A stretch of DNA of 10,014 nt. Source: a virus. Taxonomy: Duplodnaviria > Heunggongvirae > Uroviricota > Caudoviricetes. Where the stretch lies: IMG/VR virus record IMGVR_UViG_3300029107_000029, positions 1 through 10,014 of that record, one strand, 5' to 3'. Under the pieces are notes generated by a model, which worked only from the letters and a program-made list of their open reading frames with translations, did not search any database and was not told the DNA's origin. A program made the position numbers and the translations under genes. This document shows, piece by piece, positions 2 through 10,014 of the stretch (within the stretch, counting starts at the first letter, position 1; every line of letters starts with the position of its first letter).

Positions 2-2218
2 CGCCATAATGCCGTTGAGGTGAACTGGATTGACCCGGATAACGGCTGGGAGACGGCGACAGAGCTTGTGGAGGACACGCAGGCCATTGCCCGTTACGGT
101 CGTAACGTCACGAAGATGGATGCCTTTGGCTGTACCAGCCGGGGACAGGCGCACCGCGCCGGGCTGTGGCTGATTAAAACGGAACTGCTGGAAACGCAGA
201 CCGTGGACTTCAGCGTGGGGGCGGAAGGGCTTCGCCATGTACCGGGTGATGTCATTGAAATCTGTGATGATGACTATGCGGGGATCAGCATCGGCGGGCG
301 CGTGCTGGCGGTGAACAGCCAGACCCGGACACTGACGCTCGACCGTGAAATCACGCTGCCATCCTCCGGCACCACGCTGATAAGCCTGGTTGACGGGCAG
401 GGGAATCCGGTCAGCGTGGAGGTCCAGTCCGTCACCGACGGCGTGAAGGTGAAAGTGAGCCGTGTTCCTGACGGCGTTGCTGAATACAGCGTGTGGGGGC
501 TGAAGCTGCCGACGCTGCGCCAGCGCCTGTTCCGCTGTGTGAGTATCCGTGAGAACGACGACGACACGTATGCCATCACCGCCGTGCAGCATGTACCGGA
601 AAAAGAGGCCATCGTGGATAACGGGGCGCACTTTGACGGCGACCAGAGCGGCACGATGAATGGTGTCACGCCGCCAGCGGTGCAGCACCTGACTGCCGAA
701 GTCACCGCAGACAGCGGGGAATATCAGGTGCTGGCGCGATGGGACACGCCGAAGGTGGTGAAGGGCGTGAGCTTCCTGCTCCGTCTGACCGTGACAGCGG
801 ATGACGGCAGTGAGCGGCTGGTCAGCACTGCCAGGACGACGGAAACCACATACCGCTTCACACAACTGGCGTTGGGGAACTACAGGCTGACAGTCCGGGC
901 GGTAAATGCGTGGGGGCAGCAGGGCGATCCGGCATCGGTATCGTTCCGGATTGCCGCACCGGCAGCACCGTCGAGGATTGATCTGACGCCGGGCTATTTT
1001 CAGATAACCGCAACGCCGCATCTTGCCGTTTATGACCCGACGGTACAGTTTGAATTCTGGTTCTCGGAAAAGCGGATTGCGGATATCAGGCAGGTTGAAA
1101 CCACAGCCCGCTATCTTGGCACGGCGCTGTACTGGATAGCTGCCAGTATCAATATTAAGCCGGGCCATGATTATTATTTTTATATCCGCAGTGTGAATAC
1201 TGTTGGCAAATCGGCATTCGTGGAGGCTGTCGGTCAGGCGAGCGATGATGCTTCCGGCTATCTGGATTTTTTCAAAGGCCAGATAACTGAATCCCATCTC
1301 GGCAAGGAGCTGCTGGAAAAAGTCGAGCTGACGGAGGATAACGCCAGCAAACTGGAGGAGTTTTCGAAAGAGTGGAAAGATGCCAACGATAAATGGAATG
1401 CCATGTGGGGCGTCAAAATTGAGCAGACCGAAGACGGCAGGCATTATGTCGCGGGGCTTGGCCTCAGCATGGAGGATACGGAGGAAGGTAAACTGAGCCA
1501 GTTCCTAGTTGCCGCTAACCGTATCGCGTTTATTGACCCGGCAAACGGGAATGAAACGCCGATGTTTGTGGCGCAGGGCAACCAGATATTCATGAACGAA
1601 GTGTTCCTGAAGTATCTGACGGCGCCAACCATTACCAGCGGCGGTAATCCTCCGGTATTTTCCCTGACACCGGACGGGCGGCTGACGGCGAAAAATGCCG
1701 ATATCAGCGGTAACGTGAATGCGAACTCCGGGACGCTCAACAATGTCACGATTAACCAGAACTGTCGGATTCTGGGAAAACTGTCTGCCAACCAGATTGA
1801 AGGTGATATTGTCAAAACGGTGGGAAAAGCCTTTCCGAGAAATGGCAGTTATGCCAGCGGTACAATAACGGTCACTGTGTACGATGACCAGGCTTTTGAC
1901 CGTCAGATAGTAATCCCACCCGTTCTGTTTCGCGGTGGTAAGCATGAAAACTTCAACAGCAACAACCAACAGTCATACTGGTATTCAACCTGTAAGCTGC
2001 AGGTGTTGAAGAACGGACAGGAAATCTTTCAGCAACCCGCGACGGATGTCAGCAGGGTATTTTCATCAGTCATTGATATGCCTGCCGGACACGGCCATGT
2101 CACCCTGACTTTCAATGTTTCTTCATATGGTGCTAATAACTGGACGCCAACGACCAGTATCAGCGACCTTCTTGTTGTTGTGATGAAGAAATCTACAGCT
2201 GGTATCAGTATCAGTTGA
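2..2218 (+). CDS. J: Tail tip / host-specificity protein J (lambda gpJ family), 3' portion; the 5' end lies upstream of the window
   Basis: The reading frame is open from the window edge (frame 2, no stop before 2216-2218); the GTG at 20 is only the first in-frame start-like codon, not the true start. The translation matches my recollection of lambda gpJ over long stretches (e.g. ...[30 protein letters not shown]..., ...[25 protein letters not shown]..., ...[35 protein letters not shown]...). The last ~150 residues diverge from what I recall of lambda J. Confidence 0.9.
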
Positions 2219-2285: not shown

Positions 2286-2885
2286 ATGCGTAAATTATGT
2301 GCTGTTATTCTGTCTGCAGTAGTCTGGCTGGTCGCCGCTGGTACGCCAGCGAGTGCAGCAGAGCATCAGTCCACACTAAGCGGCGGGTATCTTCAGTCCC
2401 ATACTGATATGCCCGGAAACGATGACCTGAAGGGCATTAACGTGAAATACCGTTATGAATTTACGGACACGCTGGGGCTGGTGACGTCATTCAGCTATGC
2501 AGGAAACAAGAATCGCCAGATTACCCGTTACAGCGATACCCGCTGGCATGAAGATTCAGCGCATAACCGCTGGTTCAGCGTGATGGCGGGGCCGTCTGTA
2601 CGCGTGAATGAATGGTTCAGTGCTTATGCGATGGCGGGTGTGGCTTACAGTCGTGTTTCGACGTTCTCCGGGGATTATCTCCGCGTAACTGACAACAAGG
2701 GGAAAACGCACGATGTGCTGACCGGAAGTGATGGCGGTCGCCACAGCAACACGTCTCTGGCGTGGGGGGCTGGCGTGCAGTTTAACCCGACCGAATCCGT
2801 GGCCATTGACCTTGCTTATGAAGGTTCCGGCAGTGGCGACTGGCGCACTGACGGTTTCATCGTTGGTGTCGGTTATAAATTCTGA
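2286..2885 (+). CDS. lom: Lom outer-membrane beta-barrel protein (Ail/Lom/PagC/Rck family), 199 aa
   Basis: ATG at 2286 preceded by GAGG (2277-2280). N-terminal signal peptide ending ...TPASA/AEHQ. Strong similarity to recalled lambda Lom, especially the C-terminus ...[23 protein letters not shown] and [14 protein letters not shown]. Position directly after J is as in lambda. Confidence 0.9.
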
Positions 2886-2938: not shown

Positions 2939-2949
2939 GTGGAGTGGAT

Positions 2950-5307
2950 ATGGCAGCAGTAAAAATCTCAGGTGTGCTGAAAGATGGTGCGGGAAAACCA
3001 ATACAGAACTGCACTATTCAACTGAAGGCAAAGCGTAACAGCACCACGGTACTGGTGAACACGGTGGCCTCTGAAAATCCGGATGAAGCCGGGCGTTACA
3101 GCATGGATGTTGAGTATGGCCAGTACAGCGTCATCCTGCTGGTTGAAGGTTTTCCGCCTTCACATGCCGGGACCATTACCGTCTATGAAGGCTCCAGACC
3201 AGGTACGCTGAATGATTTTCTCGGCGCCATGACGGAAGATGATGTCATGCCGGAGGCATTGCGTCGTTTTGAGGAAATGGTGGAAGAAGCGGCACGCAAC
3301 GCTGAAGCCGCCTCTCAGAGCGCAGCGGCGGCAAAGAAATCCGAAACTGCAGCGGCATCATCGAAGAACGCGGCGAAAACCTCAGAAACGAATGCAGCTA
3401 ACAGCGCACAGGCGGCAGCGGCCTCGCAGACTGCATCGGCAAATTCCGCGACAGCAGCTAAAAAATCAGAAACCAACGCGAAAAATAGCGAGACAGCAGC
3501 AAAGACGAGCGAAACCAACGCAAAGTCCAGCCAGACGGCAGCGAAAACCAGCGAAACGAATGCTAAAGCCAGTGAAACTGCGGCGAAAAATAGCCAGAAT
3601 GCAGCAGCCGAAAGCGAGAGCGCGGCAGCCGGTTCTGCGACTTCAGCAGCTGGATCAGCAACTGCTGCGGCTAACAGCCAGAAAGCAGCGAAGACGAGCG
3701 AAACTAACGCAAAGTCCAGCCAGACGGCAGCGAAGACCAGCGAAACGAATGCCAAAGCCAGCGAAACTGCGGCGAAAAACAGTCAGGATGCAGCAGCCCA
3801 AAGCGAGAGTGCCGCAGCTGGTTCTGCAACAGCGGCAGCTAATAGCCAAAAAGCTGCAAAAACCAGTGAAACTAACGCAAAGACGAGTGAAACAAAAGCA
3901 GCAGCCAGCGAGACAGAAGCAACGTCAGCCGCAACAAGAGCAGAGAATGCAGCCCGGATTGCAGAAGATGCCGCTGATCCTGCTTCTGTCCCTCCGCTTC
4001 CTGATATCTGGCTACCCTTGAATGATTCTCTGGAAGCGATAACAGGGTATGCGCCGGGCTATAAAACAATAACCATCGGCAGTGATGAAATAACAATGCC
4101 TGTTAATGGCATATGCCAATTTAGCCGGGCTTCATCAGCAACGTATATTGATAAGTCCGGGCATATTACCGTAGCAGGTAATAACGTTCCTCGTTTTGAA
4201 AAATATGGTTTGCTGATAGAGAATCAGCGAACAAACATGTTCGTAAATAGTTTTAATCCTGATGCCTGGAATAAAAGCGGTGGTATATCTGTAACATCAT
4301 CAACAGATGAATTTGAGTTTAAATATGGACGTTTCACAGTAGGAAGCGATATAGCAGGAACGACAACAGGGAGAAATATATGCACAGTTGCTGGTAATAA
4401 AGGCATAGATGTGACTGGCGATGATCAGTACAGTAAAGGTCCGTATGTTACCGCGTCGTTCAGGGTAAGAAGTGATCTCAATGTTCGCGCACGTATCCGT
4501 TTTGAACGGTATAACTCGGAAGGATACACTTTCCTTTGTGACGCCTATTTGTCATTACAGACTCATGAACTACAAATTACGGGTGGTAATGCCCAGCTAT
4601 TAACAGCAAACTTTGAAATCGACCCTGGTAGTGGATGGATATATTTTCAGGCAACACTGAAATGTCTGCCAGAATGGGGAATGGTTGGTACGCAGCTGCA
4701 AATTGCAGCCGACAGAGCTGTGGGGTCTTTTGCAACAGGTGACTGGATAGAAGTAACCACCCCGCAATTCGAGTATGGTGCTTGTGCAACTTCCTTTATC
4801 ATAACGACAACAGAGCCAGCGACTCGTGCATCAGATTTATGTAAATTTCCGCTGATGAAAAATATGTATACCATGCCTTTTACGTTCATGGTGGAAGTCC
4901 ATAAAAACTGGTTTATTTCTCATAATGCTGCACCGCGTGTCATTGATTCAGAAAATCACCAGTCCGGAGGCCCATTTATTATGGGGTTTGGTTCTTCTGG
5001 AACTATCAGTCAGGATGGTTATTCGTATTGCGATATAGGCGGGGCTAACCGGCGTGTATATGAGTCATGCGGAGTAAGAGATCTCGTTATGGGATTCAGG
5101 GTTAAGGCTGACGGCATGACATGTTCATTTGCAAATAAGAATATAAGCACTGAAACCAAAACAGTATGGAAATATATTCGTGAAGCAGCCGTGATTCGTA
5201 TCGGGGGGCAAACGACGACAGGATTACGACACCTTAATGGTCATATAAAAAACCTCCGTTTCTGGAACAGAGCATTGTCAGATACGCAGCTTAAGGAATA
5301 CGTATAA
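2950..5307 (+). CDS. stf: Side tail fibre protein (Stf-like), 785 aa: lambda-like N-terminus and Ala/Ser/Thr/Lys-rich repeat shaft, with a non-lambda C-terminal half ending in a LamG/concanavalin-A-like signature
   Basis: Preferred start is ATG 2950 with GGAG at 2941-2944 (5-nt spacer); the GTG at 2944 in the ORF track has no Shine-Dalgarno. N-terminus MAVKISGVLKDGAGKPIQNCTIQLKAKRNSTTV...GRYSMDVEYGQYSVIL...FPPSHAGTITVYE matches recalled lambda Stf. The C-terminal ~450 aa do not resemble lambda Stf; the extreme C-terminus GLRHLNGHIKNLRFWNRALSDTQLKEY fits the characteristic end of LamG_3/concanavalin-like lectin domains (...G.ID.vRiynRALSaeEI...). Confidence 0.85.
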   Translation: MAAVKISGVLKDGAGKPIQNCTIQLKAKRNSTTVLVNTVASENPDEAGRYSMDVEYGQYSVILLVEGFPPSHAGTITVYEGSRPGTLNDFLGAMTEDDVMPEALRRFEEMVEEAARNAEAASQSAAAAKKSETAAASSKNAAKTSETNAANSAQAAAASQTASANSATAAKKSETNAKNSETAAKTSETNAKSSQTAAKTSETNAKASETAAKNSQNAAAESESAAAGSATSAAGSATAAANSQKAAKTSETNAKSSQTAAKTSETNAKASETAAKNSQDAAAQSESAAAGSATAAANSQKAAKTSETNAKTSETKAAASETEATSAATRAENAARIAEDAADPASVPPLPDIWLPLNDSLEAITGYAPGYKTITIGSDEITMPVNGICQFSRASSATYIDKSGHITVAGNNVPRFEKYGLLIENQRTNMFVNSFNPDAWNKSGGISVTSSTDEFEFKYGRFTVGSDIAGTTTGRNICTVAGNKGIDVTGDDQYSKGPYVTASFRVRSDLNVRARIRFERYNSEGYTFLCDAYLSLQTHELQITGGNAQLLTANFEIDPGSGWIYFQATLKCLPEWGMVGTQLQIAADRAVGSFATGDWIEVTTPQFEYGACATSFIITTTEPATRASDLCKFPLMKNMYTMPFTFMVEVHKNWFISHNAAPRVIDSENHQSGGPFIMGFGSSGTISQDGYSYCDIGGANRRVYESCGVRDLVMGFRVKADGMTCSFANKNISTETKTVWKYIREAAVIRIGGQTTTGLRHLNGHIKNLRFWNRALSDTQLKEYV
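3499..3900 (+). repeat. In-frame tandem repeats inside stf (units of 189 bp and 168 bp, about 90% identical, plus a partial third unit), nested in a shorter SETNAK-type periodicity
   Basis: Direct sequence comparison: accaacgcaaagtccagccagacggcagcgaa at 3514 recurs as actaacgcaaagtccagccagacggcagcgaa at 3703 (offset 189 bp = 63 codons) and partially at 3871 (offset 168 bp = 56 codons). Encoded peptide AAKTSETNAKSSQTAAKTSETNAKASETAAKNSQ[N/D]AAA[E/Q]SESAAAGSAT... is repeated. Confidence 0.85.
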
Positions 5308-5576
5308 TGCGGGATATAACATTACGATTCGATAACAGAGAACAGTTTAACGCAATTGTATATGACAGTGGCCTGTTCAGTCTTGAAGAAGAAAATGGGG
5401 TTCTTGTTGATGTTATTGGCTGCATTATTGATTACGAGGAACCAGAAAACGAAAGATGTACAGGCATTGATCGCGGTGGTTTTTTCGTAAACATGAGGAT
5501 TGTTGATGGCAGTAAAAACATATCTTCTTTAATGCCTTTCATTACGACAGATCAGCATGTAAGGACATGGGCTTAA
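5307..5576 (+). CDS. Hypothetical acidic protein, 89 aa, translationally coupled to stf; function unknown (candidate cognate fibre chaperone by position only)
   Basis: Its ATG (5307-5309) overlaps the stf stop TAA (5305-5307) in a TAATG arrangement. No recognisable motif. ORF is intact and co-oriented within a tight operon. Confidence 0.55.
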   Translation: MRDITLRFDNREQFNAIVYDSGLFSLEEENGVLVDVIGCIIDYEEPENERCTGIDRGGFFVNMRIVDGSKNISSLMPFITTDQHVRTWA

Positions 5577-5588
5577 TGGAGTAAGACA

Positions 5589-6293
5589 ATGGTTACAAAA
5601 ACAGTAATTCCAGGAGACATCACCACGTTAAAGGGAGATGTCAGTAAAGCCAAGGAAGATATTTCCTCAATTAACGTAAAAGTATCAACGCTTCAGGCTG
5701 ATATGACCAGTGCAAAGCAGGATATCAGCTCCAGATACACAAAAACTGAAGTTGATAATAAGCTGAAAAACAAACTGGAAGTGAACGATCTGGAAAGTGG
5801 TCGTTATGGTGGAGATTTTTACCCGCTGACTGGCCGTGAAGCGTTTTATTTATGGGGGTTGGGCACGACTACTGCGGCGGCAAACCTTTATCTTAATCCT
5901 GACCCCGCAATTTCGTCTGTGCTGCGGTCAACATCGTCTATCCGCTATAAACATTCAGTAGAGACGATAGATTCGGAGCACGCCGATCTCATTTTCAAGA
6001 TGCGCCCTGTATGGTACAGGTCGCAATGCGAAAATGACAGGCGCGATTGGGGATTCTATGGATTGATTGCCGAGGAAGTAGGAGAAATTGCCCCTCAGTT
6101 TGTTCACTGGCGACCAGCTAACGAAGATGATGCACCGGAAACCATTTCCAGCAATGGCCTTGTTGCCGAAGGTGTAATGTACGAACGTCTGGTTGTTCCA
6201 CTGATTCACCATATCCAGAAGCTGACTGAAAGAGTTGATGAACTTGAGTCAGAATTAAAGTTGTTATTAACTTCCCGAAGCGATATTGGATAA
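5589..6293 (+). CDS. Tail-fibre-like protein, 234 aa: N-terminal coiled-coil-like repeats plus C-terminal peptidase S74 / intramolecular chaperone-like domain
   Basis: ATG 5589 with GGAG at 5578-5581. N-terminal repeats ITTLKGDVSKAKEDISSINVKVSTLQADMTSAKQDISS. C-terminal segment SSIRYK...LIFKMRPVWYR...GLIAEEVGEIAPQFV...GVMYERLVVPLIHHIQKLTERVDELESELKLL fits the recalled S74 'chaperone of endosialidase' pattern (S-x4-K, klrPvtYr, GfIAQEv..P..v, vdY..lv.lli.AiqeL). Confidence 0.7.
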   Translation: MVTKTVIPGDITTLKGDVSKAKEDISSINVKVSTLQADMTSAKQDISSRYTKTEVDNKLKNKLEVNDLESGRYGGDFYPLTGREAFYLWGLGTTTAAANLYLNPDPAISSVLRSTSSIRYKHSVETIDSEHADLIFKMRPVWYRSQCENDRRDWGFYGLIAEEVGEIAPQFVHWRPANEDDAPETISSNGLVAEGVMYERLVVPLIHHIQKLTERVDELESELKLLLTSRSDIG

Positions 6294-6303
6294 AGGAGGA
6301 GTA

Positions 6304-6597
6304 ATGGATATAACACCTTTCCTTCACGCGCTTTGTGCTGTGGCTGCGCAGGTACTGGTTGGTCTTTTTACCGGGAACTGGGCTTACGGAGCGATAGCCG
6401 GTTGTACGTTCTTCATTGCGCGTGAACACACCCAGGCAGAATATCGCTGGATTGAAATGTTCGGGCATGGCAAGCGAATGAATATGCCTTGGTGGGGCGG
6501 TTTTGATCCACGTGCATGGGATGTGGCAAGCCTGATGGATTTTGCTGTGCCGGTGGTGGCGTGTCTGCTGGTCTGGCTGTTGATTAATCGCGGGTGA
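6304..6597 (+). CDS. Small predicted inner-membrane protein, 98 aa, about three hydrophobic segments; function unknown
   Basis: ATG 6304 preceded by AGGAGG (6294-6299); the ORF track's TTG at 6286 overlaps the upstream stop and is less likely. Hydrophobic stretches FLHALCAVAAQVLVGLF, WAYGAIAGCTFFIA and LMDFAVPVVACLLVWLLI. No lipobox or signal-peptidase site recognised. Confidence 0.55.
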   Translation: MDITPFLHALCAVAAQVLVGLFTGNWAYGAIAGCTFFIAREHTQAEYRWIEMFGHGKRMNMPWWGGFDPRAWDVASLMDFAVPVVACLLVWLLINRG

Positions 6598-6606
6598 AAA
6601 AGGTGA

Positions 6607-6735
6607 GCTGTATATGCAACGGAGGGCGAAACCTCGTTGCTGGAAGCCTGGAAGAAGTATCGGGTGTTGCTGAACCGTGTTGATACATCAACTGCACCGG
6701 ATACTGAGTGGCCTCTCATTCCTGCAGCTAATTGA
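6607..6735 (+). pseudogene. tfa: 3' remnant of a tail fibre assembly gene (tfa-like), last ~42 codons, with no start codon
   Basis: Frame-1 translation from 6607 to the TGA at 6733-6735 gives [42 protein letters not shown], which matches my recollection of the conserved C-terminus of lambda-family Tfa (...[29 protein letters not shown]...). It is preceded by in-frame stops at 6595-6597 and 6604-6606 and has no in-frame ATG/GTG with a Shine-Dalgarno. Confidence 0.55.
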
Positions 6736-6753
6736 AAACTAGTTAATTATATT

Positions 6754-6788
6754 CCGCAGCAAATTATACTGGTAATATGCTGCGGTTT
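6754..6788. terminator. Hairpin between the convergent tail-fibre operon and diguanylate cyclase gene; possible weak terminator
   Basis: Inverted repeat ccgcagca (6754-6761) / tgctgcgg (6778-6785) with a 16-nt AT-rich loop, followed on the + strand by ttt. The loop is long and the T-run short, so confidence is low. Confidence 0.3.
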
Positions 6789-6829
6789 AATGATCAGTAA
6801 GTATAATATCGTCTGTTGCCACTAAATAG

Positions 6830-8173
6830 CTATGATAGCTCGCTATGTATGATTACCTTGTTTCTGCCAGTTCTTTTGGCTTCATATAGCGATTCATCTG
6901 CTTGAGCCAAGATTTCTGAAGGCATGAGTTTATTTGAAAGAGTGATGAACCCACCTATGCTGATAGTGACTCTTTCAACCCCATATTTAACAGTAAGATT
7001 TTGTGTTTTCACTTCAACATTCCTTCTTATTCTTTCGCTGATTGCTGAGATCTGAGAAAATGAAAGATCATTGAATACAATGGCGAATTCTTCCCCTCCA
7101 AGTCGGCCGAATAAATCTTTGTTCCTGATTGTCTTTGCAATAATCTTTGTTACTGTGCTTATTACTATATCTCCAGTGTGATGTCCATGCTGGTCATTTA
7201 TCTTCTTGAAGTGATCAATGTCGAGCATTAATACACAAATGGAATTATTATTGTTATTTTTTAATATTGTCTTGAAGGCATTTAAAAAACCACCTCTATT
7301 ATAAGTGTTAGTTAAAAAATCGTGTGATGCCAGATAATCTGAATATTTTAATTTCAAAAATATAAAATACATTAGAGTGCATATGATATATAGGCTGGAT
7401 GCTAGTTCAAACCCTTTGGCCCAATACCATATAGGATAACGTGAATCCATAAAATGCAATAATATTAAGTTATCACATGCTAGAGCAATGCTGATAAAGC
7501 TAATGCAAAACCATATTTTTGAATAATTTTTAATAAAAAAACATGAAGAAACAAGAAGTAATAGCCAGAAATAAATTATCGTCTTAATGTAGAATGTATT
7601 CCATGTCAATTGATGGCTGACGGAGGAATAGTATACTATATTAATAGAGTAGCTTTCATTCGCGCTACTTAATATTTTGGCTGTAAATGATATGAAAATA
7701 AGAATTAGTATGGCAAATAGTATTGTGAATGTATTTTTTCTATTTGCACAAGTGTAAATTTCTTTTGAATGGCTTGAAAAAATAGCAACACAGGAAATTA
7801 ACACAAAGCTTATTTGACGGAAAAAGTAAAATATTGCGACGTCATTTGCCTTCTGGATTATTAAGGATTCAGAAGATATTGGTGTTTGCACAATAATTAT
7901 TGTCTCTACAAAATAATAGAGATTGTTCAGGAATGCAATGGCTAGAATCAGCAGGCAAATTTGTTTTTGATGAGATGTATAGTATAAAAACATAAATATA
8001 CAAATCATAAGGTTTATAAAAAACAGGCCTACAATAAAGATAATATAGTTGGTTTGGGTTGTTTGTGTAAGGTATAGCCAATTTTTCTCATGTAACTGCA
8101 TGAGAAAAAATGAAACAAAGATGAATATAATGGAAAATATTTTTAAACTTACAGGTACTGTACGAGTAGTCAT
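6830..8173 (-). CDS. Membrane-anchored diguanylate cyclase, 447 aa: N-terminal ~8-TM sensor-like domain plus C-terminal GGDEF domain with GGEEF active site and RxxD I-site
   Basis: ATG at 8173 (- strand) with AGGTGG 4 nt upstream (complement of 8178-8183). C-terminal domain contains HDFLTNTYNRGGF, the I-site RNKD five residues upstream of RLGGEEF, and DESLYEAKRTGRNKV. N-terminal 270 aa has about eight hydrophobic segments. The gene is very AT-rich with Ile/Phe/Asn/Lys/Tyr-rich codon usage, unlike the flanking genes. Confidence 0.9.
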   Translation of the reverse strand: MTTRTVPVSLKIFSIIFIFVSFFLMQLHEKNWLYLTQTTQTNYIIFIVGLFFINLMICIFMFLYYTSHQKQICLLILAIAFLNNLYYFVETIIIVQTPISSESLIIQKANDVAIFYFFRQISFVLISCVAIFSSHSKEIYTCANRKNTFTILFAILILIFISFTAKILSSANESYSINIVYYSSVSHQLTWNTFYIKTIIYFWLLLLVSSCFFIKNYSKIWFCISFISIALACDNLILLHFMDSRYPIWYWAKGFELASSLYIICTLMYFIFLKLKYSDYLASHDFLTNTYNRGGFLNAFKTILKNNNNNSICVLMLDIDHFKKINDQHGHHTGDIVISTVTKIIAKTIRNKDLFGRLGGEEFAIVFNDLSFSQISAISERIRRNVEVKTQNLTVKYGVERVTISIGGFITLSNKLMPSEILAQADESLYEAKRTGRNKVIIHSELS

Positions 8174-8239
8174 GCTGCCACCTAAAAAAATGCATATTTA
8201 TTCATGTGTATCAATAAATATGTCTCAGGGTAACTTATT

Positions 8240-8285
8240 CTAAATCAGTATACCATTTGTTATAGATGCTGAAATTATCTTTTTC
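8240..8285 (-). promoter_or_regulatory. Candidate sigma70 promoter for the diguanylate cyclase gene
   Basis: On the - strand: TTTCAG, 16-nt spacer, TATACT (complement of 8247-8252), about 75 nt upstream of the start codon, in an AT-rich region. Pattern match only. Confidence 0.25.
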
Positions 8286-9173
8286 TGTAAAGATGACTTT
8301 TGAATGGTTTGCTGGTTATTAATATGCCTGCTAATTTAAGGTGTATATAGTGAATTTTGAGTGAAATTTTTAATGTGTTATTATTTGTGATGTATGTCAC
8401 AGAGCCATTTGAGGCGGTCAGTATTCATACTGATAATTAGTGTGAAATTATGCTCTGTGTATGGCATATGTAGGGGAAGAGCAGACTTCGATTGTACCTA
8501 TTTGCGGTGAATCCGATATCTTTTATTGCGTTGTTGGTCATGTCATGTTGAACTCGATTTAGATTTTTTAGCCGAACTAACAAGCCTGCAGACATCTGAC
8601 ATTTTTTGTTAGAGCGTACTATTTTGATGCGAAGTCATGTAACTTTGTTTCAGGCTGAAAAAGGGTTTAAATTGGGGGAAGTCCAGCTTGGCTCTGGCTC
8701 GATCTCACTCCTCCTTTACTTCTCCATTCAGACCAGGCATCGCAAATTCACTGCATGAAGATGAGCGATTTTTATATATTGTGAAGTAAGCGTTTTTTCC
8801 TAGAGCGGTTGGCCAGGGCAATACATCTTGGGTTTCCCTGATTCGTACCGCTTATGCTTCGGAGATAAGGGGATATGTGCTCTGTGAACCTAACGGGGAT
8901 GGTACAGCCAGCATCATCGATTTCAGCCCGGTAAAAGAGACGAGGAAAAATGCACAACAGGCACCACACGTTATGCATGGATTCGAATTGCTCATAATTC
9001 ACCAGCACAGCTTTAAATCGTAAAGAGAACCACGCTACGCTGTATGCGAGAATGTATTGTGGTTGGCTGGTGAAATTCCGTTAGTGGATTTACAGCCGGA
9101 ACTGATTCTCTGGGAAAGAAATCATGGGCCAACTCACAGGCCACAGAATGAGAATTCTTAGAATTTTTTCGGT

Positions 9174-9213
9174 GGCAAAAATGGGGCAAAACGCTGCAAA
9201 AGGGGCAAAAAAA
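9174..9213. repeat. Four phased GCAAAA A-tracts at helical periodicity (possible intrinsic bend or clustered protein-binding sites)
   Basis: GCAAAA begins at 9175, 9186, 9196 and 9205 (spacings 11, 10, 9 bp): ggcaaaaatggggcaaaacgctgcaaaaggggcaaaaaaag. Adjacent 8-bp palindrome AGAATTCT at 9151-9158. Confidence 0.5.
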
Positions 9214-9506
9214 GAGTGGATTATCGTAGCTTATTGTTGTCGCTGATGATATTTAACACATTGAAAAATAAGTAAAATACTTATGAGTCAGAGAGTTGTG
9301 ATTTTTGCCCTTACTTGTTCAGGTTGTATTGTTCTTTCTTACTAATTTCTTGATTTTGCAACATTTAATAGTAGCTCAATTCATTATATGGCATCAGAAG
9401 AGTATGCATCATGCCGGGATATCCGACAGCAGAAGTCTGATATAAAAACAGTGGCGTGTATGGTACGGATTAGAGGGGAAAATGTCAGCACATTTGCGAA
9501 ATGAAT

Positions 9507-9532
9507 CAAAAAGCCCGCAGCGACGTGCGGGC
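9507..9532 (-). terminator. Rho-independent terminator of the universal stress protein gene
   Basis: Read on the - strand: gcccgca-cgtcgc-tgcgggc followed by TTTTT (complement of 9508-9512), beginning 9 nt downstream of the stop codon. Confidence 0.65.
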
Positions 9533-9540
9533 GTTAGTTA

Positions 9541-10014
<474 letters not shown>

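What the first reader, a model, noticed from the sequence alone, without database searches (positions are those of the whole stretch)
6740..8420. AT-rich prophage cargo island encoding an 8-TM sensor diguanylate cyclase
A compositionally foreign gene sits convergent to the tail-fibre operon, in the position equivalent to lambda's non-essential b region between the fibre genes and the prophage end. It encodes a GGDEF enzyme with intact A-site (GGEEF) and I-site (RNKD), so it is probably catalytically active and product-inhibited. A phage-delivered c-di-GMP source could shift the lysogen toward biofilm formation or reduced motility. It is reminiscent of the prophage-associated DgcX I recall being reported in EAEC O104:H4, but I cannot establish identity without alignment. 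The AT richness suggests H-NS silencing and conditional expression.
Basis: partly seen in the sequence, partly recalled or inferred. Interest (0 to 1): 0.65.

Follow-up and report, generated by a model that had tools for sequence, protein, structure and literature searches.

The report
Prophage-carried DgcX-like diguanylate cyclase gene
An AT-rich gene at the far end of a Rac-type prophage in Escherichia marmotae encodes a membrane-sensor enzyme that should make the biofilm signal c-di-GMP; it is a diverged relative (50% identical) of the known prophage-linked DgcX of pathogenic E. coli, so it is a new member of a known kind, not a new system.

Summary
Window 6830-8173 (minus strand) encodes a 447-aa MASE4 + GGDEF protein with eight predicted membrane helices, GGEEF (359-363) and RNKD (350-353). 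The gene is 31% GC; the rest of the window averages 49%.

It lies inside the prophage. The ttcA-5' duplicate that marks attR of Rac-type prophages is at 9315-9364, and prophage-free E. marmotae match the window at 100% only from 9315 rightwards.

In other strains the same slot, between the tail-fibre genes and attR, holds sitABCD, omptin+cdtABC, ykgJ alone or nothing. It is an interchangeable cargo (moron) position. The identical protein also occurs in a true E. coli, which shows transfer between species.

The protein is 50% identical to canonical DgcX (443 aa), against 33% to DgcT and 37% to CdgI. It is therefore a separate deep lineage of the DgcX family. I also show that canonical dgcX lies inside the lambda attR.

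dN/dS of 0.11-0.19 indicates a gene kept by selection. Enzyme activity, the sensed signal and expression are inferred only. H-NS silencing is untested, and DgcX itself is reported as very highly expressed.

Verdict: ordinary but well-defined lysogenic-conversion cargo.

The parts
20..2218 (+). 3' part of the host-specificity (J-like) tail tip gene of the prophage
   Evidence: ORF. It is 87-95% identical to annotated host specificity protein J / phage tail tip genes in L001, L002 and L020.
2286..2885 (+). lom (Ail/Lom outer-membrane protein), a classical lambdoid moron
   Evidence: Pfam Ail_Lom, E 1.8e-119.
2944..5307 (+). side tail fibre gene (stf-like)
   Evidence: Pfam phage_tail_N, E 5.9e-67.
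5307..6597 (+). three small tail-fibre-module ORFs of 89, 234 and 103 aa
   Evidence: PHROG hits: phrog_1361; phrog_3299 and tail-fibre PHROGs; phrog_1443. The 234-aa ORF carries a Peptidase_S74 chaperone domain. The cdt-carrying E. marmotae prophage shares this stretch at 97-98% up to window 6591.
6600..6735 (+). 3' remnant of a tail-fibre assembly gene (tfa), with its stop at 6733-6735
   Evidence: 87-98% identical to the 3' ends of annotated tfa genes in E. coli and E. albertii. In dgcX loci the same tfa end is joined to the cyclase gene (L001/L020).
6754..6785 (.). conserved stem-loop between the convergent tfa remnant and the cyclase gene; probably a bidirectional terminator
   Evidence: Stem CCGCAGCA...TGCTGCGG. 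The 94-nt intergenic RNA folds at -20.6 kcal/mol, z = -3.25. Across four cyclase lineages, 5 of 17 pairs are kept through changes on both sides. The terminator role is inferred.
6830..8173 (-). MASE4-GGDEF sensor diguanylate cyclase, a diverged lineage of the DgcX family (447 aa)
   Evidence: Domains. Motifs. 8 TM helices. 50% identity to DgcX. dN/dS 0.11-0.19. The exact protein is annotated in E. marmotae as GGDEF domain-containing protein / sensor domain-containing diguanylate cyclase.
8174..8687 (-). upstream region specific to this lineage: Shine-Dalgarno AGGTGG at 8183-8178 and an extended -10-like TGgTATACT at 8255-8247
   Evidence: Conserved in the E. coli (L009) and E. albertii (L022) alleles but not alignable with the canonical dgcX upstream region, apart from the ribosome-binding site. 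The promoter assignment is inferred; the consensus scan found no site of 9/12 or better on this strand here.
8687..8995 (-). pseudogene of a YkgJ-family (CxxCxxCC) protein, co-oriented with and upstream of the cyclase gene
   Evidence: tblastn against the intact RM10740 protein gives 48% identity with in-frame stops and frame breaks. The gene is intact (109 aa) in the E. albertii module.
9146..9314 (.). right-arm end of the prophage (Rac-type P' arm)
   Evidence: Nearly identical to the K-12 Rac right end from about 9201 to 9314; 9146-9200 is more diverged and carries an 11-bp gap. It is 94-96% identical in E. marmotae prophages carrying other cargo, and absent from empty-site strains.
9315..9364 (-). 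ttcC-like duplicate of the ttcA 5' end; attR junction of the ttcA-integrating prophage
   Evidence: Matches K-12 ttcC. Prophage-free E. marmotae L033/L036 match the window at 99.6-100% only from 9315 rightwards, where the sequence continues into intact ttcA.
9541..9975 (-). uspF, the first chromosomal gene beyond the prophage
   Evidence: Pfam Usp. The exact protein is named UspF of E. marmotae. The uspF-ompN flank of E. marmotae loci carrying this cyclase is about 90% identical to K-12.

Best explanation
The gene is a lysogenic-conversion cargo gene (moron). It sits at the extreme right arm of a Rac-type lambdoid prophage integrated in ttcA of Escherichia marmotae.

It encodes a DgcX-family diguanylate cyclase. 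An eight-helix MASE4 membrane module is joined by one continuous helix (residues 248-283) to a cytoplasmic GGDEF domain.

Proposed mechanism, inferred from the GGDEF family and from DgcX experiments:
- The protein dimerises in the inner membrane.
- An unknown membrane or periplasmic cue read by MASE4 sets the register of the two linker helices.
- The two GGDEF domains condense 2 GTP into c-di-GMP.
- Product bound at the RNKD I-site feeds back to inhibit synthesis.
- In the lysogen the extra c-di-GMP should raise matrix production (cellulose) and lower flagellar motility, as shown for canonical DgcX.

Shown here: the domain make-up and motifs, the position inside the att boundary, presence/absence polymorphism, purifying selection, and transfer between species. 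Inferred: enzyme activity, the signal, expression and phenotype.
For: Protein: MASE4 + GGDEF domains. GGEEF and RxxD are intact, and the residues D318, D320, N326, D335, K433 and others are invariant across the family. There are 8 TM helices and a continuous TM8-linker helix in a model of pLDDT 83. The GGDEF domain matches PleD, DosC and other solved cyclases.

Inside the prophage: K-12 Rac-end homology and the ttcC duplicate lie to the right of the gene. The empty-site E. marmotae sequence is 100% identical only from 9315 onwards.

Cargo slot: E. marmotae strains with the same UspF carry, in the same slot, nothing plus intact ttcA, sitABCD, omptin+hydrolase+cdtABC, or tail genes only. E. coli RM10740 has 117 bp where the window has a 1975-bp cassette.

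Mobility: the exact protein occurs in an E. coli whose flank is 98.4% K-12-like (L005), while the flank of E. marmotae loci carrying it (L003) is about 90%. The prophage arm is 97.7% identical between L005 and the window, against 92.8% for the flank.

Selection: dN/dS is 0.19, 0.11 and 0.13 among the three alleles of this lineage.

Family: 50% identity to DgcX over 446 residues. Canonical dgcX also lies inside its prophage: K-12 attB homology starts exactly at the 15-bp lambda core, 640 bp beyond dgcX.

Function of the relative: dgcX is highly expressed (PMC4287979). Overexpression raises cellulose and represses motility, and this depends on the GGEEF motif (PMC10459773).
Against: - No enzymology or phenotype exists for this lineage.
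- No full-length homologue was found in 50,697 deposited phage genomes, and PHROGs families match only the GGDEF part. Packaging in an active virion is therefore not shown.
- The window does not show whether the prophage is complete.
- In one E. coli context (L009), a second copy of the Rac-end sequence separates the cyclase module from the resident Rac-like prophage. There the module is a remnant, not part of the neighbouring prophage.
- Deleting dgcX in strain Fec101 had only minor effects.
Confidence: 0.8

Rival explanations
1. The cassette is not carried by a live phage. It is a fossil at the end of a decayed, non-inducible prophage, and it spreads and persists by homologous recombination of the conserved tfa end and P' arm rather than by lysogenisation.
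For: - No full-length hit in deposited phage genomes.
- A tfa gene reduced to its 3' end and a ykgJ pseudogene flank the gene.
- In L009 the module survives as a remnant beyond a second Rac-end copy.
- In L025 the related P0003 lineage survives with no prophage beside it.
- Intragenic mosaicism shows recombination.
Against: - In the window the gene is contiguous with a full set of tail genes (J, lom, stf).
- In L005 versus the window, the whole arm from 5570 to 9357 is 97.7% identical across a species boundary. Phage transfer explains this more simply.
- IMG/VR prophage predictions include ten DgcX-family loci.
- This reading concerns the vehicle only. It does not change what the gene encodes.
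Confidence: 0.3
2. The gene is kept mainly for the phage's benefit. c-di-GMP-driven matrix production and loss of motility would protect the lysogen from superinfecting phages, for example by masking receptors or blocking flagellotropic phages, so the gene acts as a defence or exclusion moron.
For: - It sits in a slot typical of lysogen-expressed morons.
- The family has at least three deep lineages, all at right ends of lambdoid prophages at different att sites: lambda attB, ttcA and the DLP12-type end. Synonymous sites between lineages are saturated, suggesting long residence on phages.
Against: - No direct evidence.
- The same slot carries ordinary host-fitness or virulence cargo (sitABCD, cdtABC).
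- No defence genes were seen beside it in the window.
Confidence: 0.12
3. The gene is silenced by H-NS because of its AT-richness, and is expressed only under special conditions.
For: The gene and 300 bp upstream are 27-33% GC, the kind of DNA H-NS prefers (general knowledge). The upstream region is not homologous to the strongly expressed dgcX promoter region.
Against: Canonical dgcX is equally AT-rich (29.6% GC) yet is reported as the most highly expressed DGC gene in E. coli, driven by RpoD and RpoS (PMC4287979). Nothing in the sequence tests H-NS binding.
Confidence: 0.3
4. The protein is a catalytically dead c-di-GMP receptor like CdgI (YeaI), or the gene is a conserved core chromosomal cyclase of this locus.
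For: CdgI shares the MASE4-GGDEF architecture and is 37% identical.
Against: - The window protein keeps GGEEF, where CdgI has a degenerate motif (alignment).
- The gene is absent from prophage-free E. marmotae and from K-12 at this locus.
- It has no near-identical DNA match in 5,426 complete E. coli genomes.
Confidence: 0.03

Closest known systems
DgcX of enteroaggregative E. coli / O104:H4 (443 aa, CAU96679.1; Richter et al. 2014, PMC4287979)
   Same: - MASE4 + GGDEF architecture, GGEEF, and RxxD five residues upstream.
- Very low GC (about 30%).
- Position directly after a tfa 3' end, convergent with the tail-fibre genes at the right end of a lambdoid prophage, with a conserved stem-loop in between.
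- dgcX has been reported at this same uspF-side site in E. coli SE11.
   Different: - Only 50% amino-acid and about 63% DNA identity, with synonymous sites saturated.
- The upstream regulatory region is unrelated.
- Host is E. marmotae, with rare E. coli and an 80% allele in E. albertii.
- It travels with a ykgJ gene or pseudogene.
DgcT (YcdT) and CdgI (YeaI), the core MASE4-GGDEF proteins of E. coli K-12
   Same: Same two-domain architecture, and the same invariant membrane-domain residues (for example N110, N235, E256, S259; R119 and Q120 are conserved in at least 90% of sequences).
   Different: 33% and 37% identity. Both are chromosomal core genes. CdgI is catalytically degenerate. Both are reported as CsrA-repressed and undetectable (PMC5635695).
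Classical lambdoid morons and right-arm cargo (lom and bor of lambda; prophage-borne sitABCD and cdtABC)
   Same: A self-contained gene of deviant base composition, placed between the tail-fibre genes and att, and present or absent among otherwise related prophages. The same slot holds sitABCD or cdtABC in sister strains.
   Different: The product is a second-messenger enzyme, not a surface protein, toxin or transporter.

Membership tests
DgcX family (prophage-linked MASE4-GGDEF cyclases) | N-terminal MASE4 membrane domain of about 270 aa with eight predicted TM helices | tested here: met
   Pfam PF17158 at 38-272, E 1.2e-34. Eight hydrophobic segments and eight helices in the AF2 model.
DgcX family (prophage-linked MASE4-GGDEF cyclases) | GGDEF domain with an intact A-site GG(D/E)EF and an I-site RxxD five residues upstream | tested here: met
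   GGEEF at 359-363 and RNKD at 350-353. GGDEF Pfam E 6e-42.
DgcX family (prophage-linked MASE4-GGDEF cyclases) | Full-length similarity to DgcX greater than to the paralogues DgcT and CdgI | tested here: met
   50-53% to DgcX-type proteins, against 33% (DgcT), 37% (CdgI) and 35% (Citrobacter core gene).
DgcX family (prophage-linked MASE4-GGDEF cyclases) | Located directly beside lambdoid prophage DNA | tested here: met
   Lies between the tail-fibre genes and attR. All six loci examined that carry the exact protein have the same layout.
DgcX family (prophage-linked MASE4-GGDEF cyclases) | Is DgcX itself (same allele or orthologue, near-identical sequence) | tested here: not met
   50% amino-acid identity. 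No DNA match above 80% in 5,426 complete E. coli genomes. It should be treated as a separate lineage.
DgcX family (prophage-linked MASE4-GGDEF cyclases) | Diguanylate cyclase activity and very high expression | not testable with these tools
   Only sequence-level support: motifs and dN/dS of 0.11-0.19. The upstream region is not homologous to that of dgcX.
Prophage moron / lysogenic-conversion cargo | Lies within the att boundaries of the prophage | tested here: met
   attR (ttcC duplicate) is at 9315-9364. The empty site in L033/L036 is identical only from 9315 onwards.
Prophage moron / lysogenic-conversion cargo | Present or absent among otherwise related prophages, with deviant base composition | tested here: met
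   A 1975-bp cassette against 117 bp in RM10740. Alternative cargos occupy the slot in sister strains. GC is 0.31 against 0.49.
Prophage moron / lysogenic-conversion cargo | Own promoter and terminator, and expression in the lysogen | tested here: inconclusive
   There is a conserved stem-loop downstream, an SD sequence, and an extended -10-like motif upstream. The consensus scan called no promoter. There are no expression data.
Rac-type (ttcA-integrating) lambdoid prophage | Duplicate of the ttcA 5' end (ttcC) at the right junction next to uspF, and a Rac-like right-arm end | tested here: met
   The 51-bp ttcC match and the Rac-end homology from 9146 (near-identical over about 9201-9314).

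The most novel reading that the evidence does not exclude
DgcX-type MASE4-GGDEF genes may be an old family borne by phages themselves. There are at least three lineages about 50% identical, each at the right end of lambdoid prophages using different att sites. Their primary role could be phage-centred: c-di-GMP-driven surface remodelling that excludes competing phages or keeps the lysogen in a biofilm, with MASE4 sensing an envelope cue linked to infection.
Probability: 0.1. Interest if true: 0.6.

Novelty: new member of a known kind. Interest (0 to 1): 0.3.

Why it matters
It extends the DgcX story beyond enteroaggregative E. coli. A second, deeply diverged lineage of the same cyclase type rides the same prophage position in E. 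marmotae, E. albertii and rare E. coli.

The att mapping shows that these cyclases are true prophage cargo inside attR, both here and for canonical dgcX at lambda attB. They are not merely neighbours of prophages. The ttcA-prophage right arm therefore emerges as an exchangeable slot that can hold a c-di-GMP source, an iron/manganese transporter or a cytolethal distending toxin.

The practical value is modest. It gives a defined candidate for strain-to-strain differences in biofilm and motility in an emerging pathogen, and a natural pair of alleles (50% identical, same architecture) for working out what MASE4 senses.

Tried and rejected
- Megablast of 6600-8600 against 5,426 complete E. coli genomes matched only the tfa remnant. 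The gene is not a common E. coli gene.
- tblastn against 50,697 phage records gave no full-length hit, only GGDEF-domain matches of 37% identity or less.
- NCBIfam has no equivalog model for this protein. All equivalog hits were below their cut-offs, and only the generic GGDEF domain model passed.
The host was therefore identified from source names and flank identity instead.
- The PDB sequence search and the Foldseek search matched only the GGDEF domain. No solved structure resembles MASE4.
- The idea that the P0003 lineage is functionally tied to the c-di-GMP-activated NfrB system, because it follows nfrB-nfrA-ybcH, was set aside. The position is better explained as the right end of a DLP12-type prophage (ybcH-DGC-ompT-AraC regulator). 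That reading relies on my recollection of the K-12 gene order.
- A core-chromosomal origin at this locus was rejected.
- No chromosomal donor was found. The nearest core genes are only 35-37% identical: the Citrobacter msyB-mdtG gene and CdgI.
Full report
**1. What is in the sequence**

The window carries the right arm of a lambdoid prophage on the plus strand:
- the 3' part of a J-like tail-tip gene (20-2218);
- lom (2286-2885; Ail_Lom, E 1.8e-119);
- a side tail fibre gene (2944-5307; phage_tail_N);
- three small tail-fibre-module ORFs (5307-6597; phrog_1361, phrog_3299 with a Peptidase_S74 chaperone domain, phrog_1443).

Next comes a 3' remnant of a tail-fibre assembly gene, about 6600-6735.

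Composition sets this ORF apart. Its GC is 0.312 and GC3 0.308. Island windows average 0.304, against 0.493 +/- 0.067 for the rest of the window.

**2. The protein**

Pfam finds MASE4 (38-272, E 1.2e-34) and GGDEF (282-439, E 6e-42). NCBIfam gives only the generic GGDEF domain model; no named equivalog passes its cut-off.

GGEEF is at 359-363 and RNKD at 350-353. The residues conserved in active cyclases are invariant across the family alignment: the DIDHFK aspartates 318/320, N326, D335 and K433.

A Kyte-Doolittle scan gives eight hydrophobic segments. An AlphaFold2 model (13-sequence alignment, mean pLDDT 83, pTM 0.66) gives eight long helices. The last of these (248-283) runs without a break from the membrane into the GGDEF domain.

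Solved structures match only the GGDEF domain (PleD, DosC, WspR and others). Nothing solved resembles MASE4.

**3. Host and prophage boundary**

The exact protein and the exact UspF are named by NCBI as Escherichia marmotae proteins. The uspF-ompN flank of E. marmotae loci that carry this cyclase (L003) is about 90% identical to K-12, and the window's own uspF flank is 91.6% identical.

K-12's Rac prophage ends with a 51-bp duplicate of the ttcA 5' end (ttcC) just before uspF. The window has this duplicate at 9315-9364. It is preceded by a stretch (9146-9314) homologous to the K-12 Rac right end and nearly identical to it from about 9201. The chromosomal side is only about 90% identical.

The decisive comparison is with prophage-free E. 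marmotae genomes that carry the identical UspF (L033, L036, L038). These have uspF directly followed by intact ttcA and dbpA. They match the window at 99.6-100% only from 9315 rightwards.

The prophage-chromosome junction is therefore at 9314/9315. The cyclase gene lies 1.1 kb inside the prophage.

**4. An exchangeable cargo slot**

E. marmotae strains with the same UspF and the same attR carry different content between attR and the tail-fibre genes:
- a sitABCD-type transporter (L032, L034, L040, L041);
- omptin + hydrolase + cdtABC, next to the same small tail ORFs as in the window (L035, L039);
- tail genes only (L037).

E. coli RM10740 has tfa-ykgJ-attR-uspF. Relative to it, the window carries a 1975-bp replacement (6714-8687) where RM10740 has 117 bp. 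Relative to the cdt prophage, the variable stretch is 6592-8943.

Upstream of the cyclase gene and in the same orientation lies a YkgJ-family pseudogene (8687-8995). In E. albertii, ykgJ (intact, 109 aa) and an 80%-identical cyclase form one co-linear 2.2-kb module.

**5. Mobility and selection**

All six loci examined that encode the exact protein show uspF - attR - cyclase - tail genes. One of them (L005) is a true E. coli: its flank is 98.4% K-12-like. Its prophage arm is 97.7% identical to the window, while the flank is 92.8%. The arm has therefore crossed the species boundary recently.

A 93% allele (P0001) sits in E. coli whose flanks are 99.3% K-12-like. There a second copy of the Rac-end sequence lies between the cyclase and ynaM-ynaE-pinR. 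In that strain the module is a remnant of an earlier ttcA prophage, lying beyond a K-12-like Rac end.

Within this lineage dN/dS is 0.11-0.19. The gene is mosaic:
- window versus L009 is about 99% identical up to codon ~330, then 67-83%;
- L009 and the E. albertii allele are 99-100% identical over the last ~110 codons.

The index lists the exact cyclase in 35 blocks of the collection, against 972 for the exact UspF. It is a minority accessory gene.

**6. Relation to DgcX**

Canonical DgcX is 443 aa, with GGEEF at 357-361. This matches the E359/E360 mutants of PMC10459773 and accession CAU96679.1. It is represented here by L001:7991-9322.

The window protein is 50% identical to it over 446 residues (E 1e-152). 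It is 33% identical to DgcT, 37% to CdgI and 35% to a Citrobacter core gene lying between msyB and mdtG.

About 770 of 5,426 complete E. coli genomes carry a gene 60-80% identical at the DNA level, and none carries a closer one.

In L001, dgcX follows a tfa gene, convergent with it, exactly as in the window. The alignment between the two loci runs from the tfa 3' end through the cyclase gene.

I mapped the L001 boundary as well. K-12 attB homology (99.8%) starts exactly at the 15-bp lambda core, GCTTTTTTATACTAA, 640 bp beyond dgcX. Canonical dgcX is thus also inside its prophage. Richter et al. described it as adjacent to prophages and possibly hitchhiking by specialised transduction, and noted a copy left of uspF-ompN in strain SE11.

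A third lineage (P0003, 52-53%) lies between ybcH and ompT-AraC regulator, or between ybcH and folD where no prophage genes remain. I read this as the right end of a DLP12-type prophage. That reading relies on my recollection of the K-12 gene order, in which envY occupies the corresponding position.

IMG/VR prophage predictions contain ten DgcX-family loci, one at 80% identity.

**7. Regulatory features**

A stem-loop at 6754-6785 lies between the tfa stop and the cyclase stop. The 94-nt intergenic RNA folds at -20.6 kcal/mol (z = -3.25). Across four cyclase lineages, 5 of 17 pairs are maintained by changes on both sides. The sample is small, but a conserved bidirectional terminator separating late tail transcription from the cargo gene would explain it. 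That role is inferred.

Upstream, an AGGTGG Shine-Dalgarno sequence (8183-8178) and an extended -10-like TGgTATACT (8255-8247) are conserved in the three alleles of this lineage. Apart from the ribosome-binding site, the 530-bp upstream region is not alignable with that of canonical dgcX. The consensus promoter scan called nothing on this strand in that region.

The reported very high expression of dgcX (PMC4287979) cannot simply be transferred to this gene. AT-richness alone cannot establish H-NS silencing either:
- dgcX is 29.6% GC and is reported as strongly expressed;
- core MASE4-GGDEF genes are also AT-rich (dgcT 38.6%, cdgI 38.5%, Citrobacter 35.3%).

**8. Mechanism, with status of each step**

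Shown by sequence or model:
- a membrane protein with eight helices and a cytoplasmic GGDEF domain on a continuous linker helix;
- intact catalytic and inhibitory motifs;
- purifying selection.

Inferred from the GGDEF family (PleD, WspR and DgcZ structures and biochemistry):
- a dimer-dependent condensation of 2 GTP to c-di-GMP;
- non-competitive product inhibition through RxxD.

Inferred from DgcX experiments:
- more cellulose and less motility when the gene is expressed, dependent on GGEEF, with only mild effects of deletion (PMC10459773).

Unknown: the MASE4 signal. The invariant or nearly invariant polar residues inside the helices (N110, R119, Q120, N235, E256, S259) are the obvious candidates for a ligand or relay site.

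**9. Verdict**

The refinements are:
- the protein is a separate DgcX-family lineage, not DgcX itself;
- the cassette is slightly larger than the stated coordinates and travels with a ykgJ pseudogene;
- the H-NS idea is untested.

I found no paper linking E. marmotae to a DgcX-like cyclase. The protein is already in public databases under generic names. It is a new member of a known kind, of modest interest.

Noticed in passing
L005 (GCA_029822595.1) against window 5570-9357 and 9460-10014: An E. coli strain (flank 98.4% K-12-like) carries the identical cyclase protein. Its prophage arm is 97.7% identical to the window, but the uspF flank only 92.8%. About 2.2 kb of extra DNA lies between uspF and attR in that strain and was not examined.
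   Followed up: partly
window 6830-7180 (codons ~330-447 of the cyclase): Intragenic mosaic. The 3' quarter of the gene, including the I and A sites, drops to 67-83% nucleotide identity against the otherwise ~99% identical E. coli allele (L009). L009 and the E. albertii allele are 99-100% identical there. The source of the window's 3' segment was not found.
   Followed up: partly
L022:11533-12336 (E. albertii), between tfa and the cyclase gene: A metallo-beta-lactamase-fold protein (Pfam Lactamase_B, with a faint Anti-Pycsar Apyc1 hit; phrog_392 metal-dependent hydrolase) sits in the same cargo region. It may be a cyclic-nucleotide-degrading anti-defence gene next to a cyclic-dinucleotide synthase.
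   Followed up: no
L025-L028, gene at 10001-11335: A third DgcX-like lineage (P0003, 52-53% identical) lies directly after nfrB-nfrA-ybcH in the same orientation, followed by ompT-AraC regulator or folD. By my recollection NfrB is a c-di-GMP-activated exopolysaccharide synthase needed for phage N4. The adjacency is probably just the DLP12-type prophage end, but an operon link was not excluded.
   Followed up: partly
L035 and L039 (8450-13242); L032, L034, L041 (8021-11470): The same ttcA-prophage slot in other E. marmotae strains carries omptin + hydrolase + cdtABC, or a sitABCD-type transporter. These are virulence and fitness cargo alternatives to the cyclase.
   Followed up: partly
L018 and L020 (GTDB representative labelled E. 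coli SCPM-O-B-8794): This genome carries two DgcX-family copies (52% and 50% identical to the window protein). Its attB flank is only 90% identical to K-12, so it is probably not E. coli in the strict sense.
   Followed up: no
window 3200-4000 (stf): The tail-fibre gene has a long repetitive Ala/Ser/Thr/Glu/Lys-rich stretch (KTSETNAK-type repeats) with a strong AT skew (up to 0.65). An alternative-frame ORF there is an artefact of the repeat.
   Followed up: no
window 9014-9086: A 73-bp stretch between the ykgJ pseudogene and the P' arm is 78% identical to sequence between dgcX and attR in the lambda-site prophages L001 and L020. Its function is unknown.
   Followed up: no
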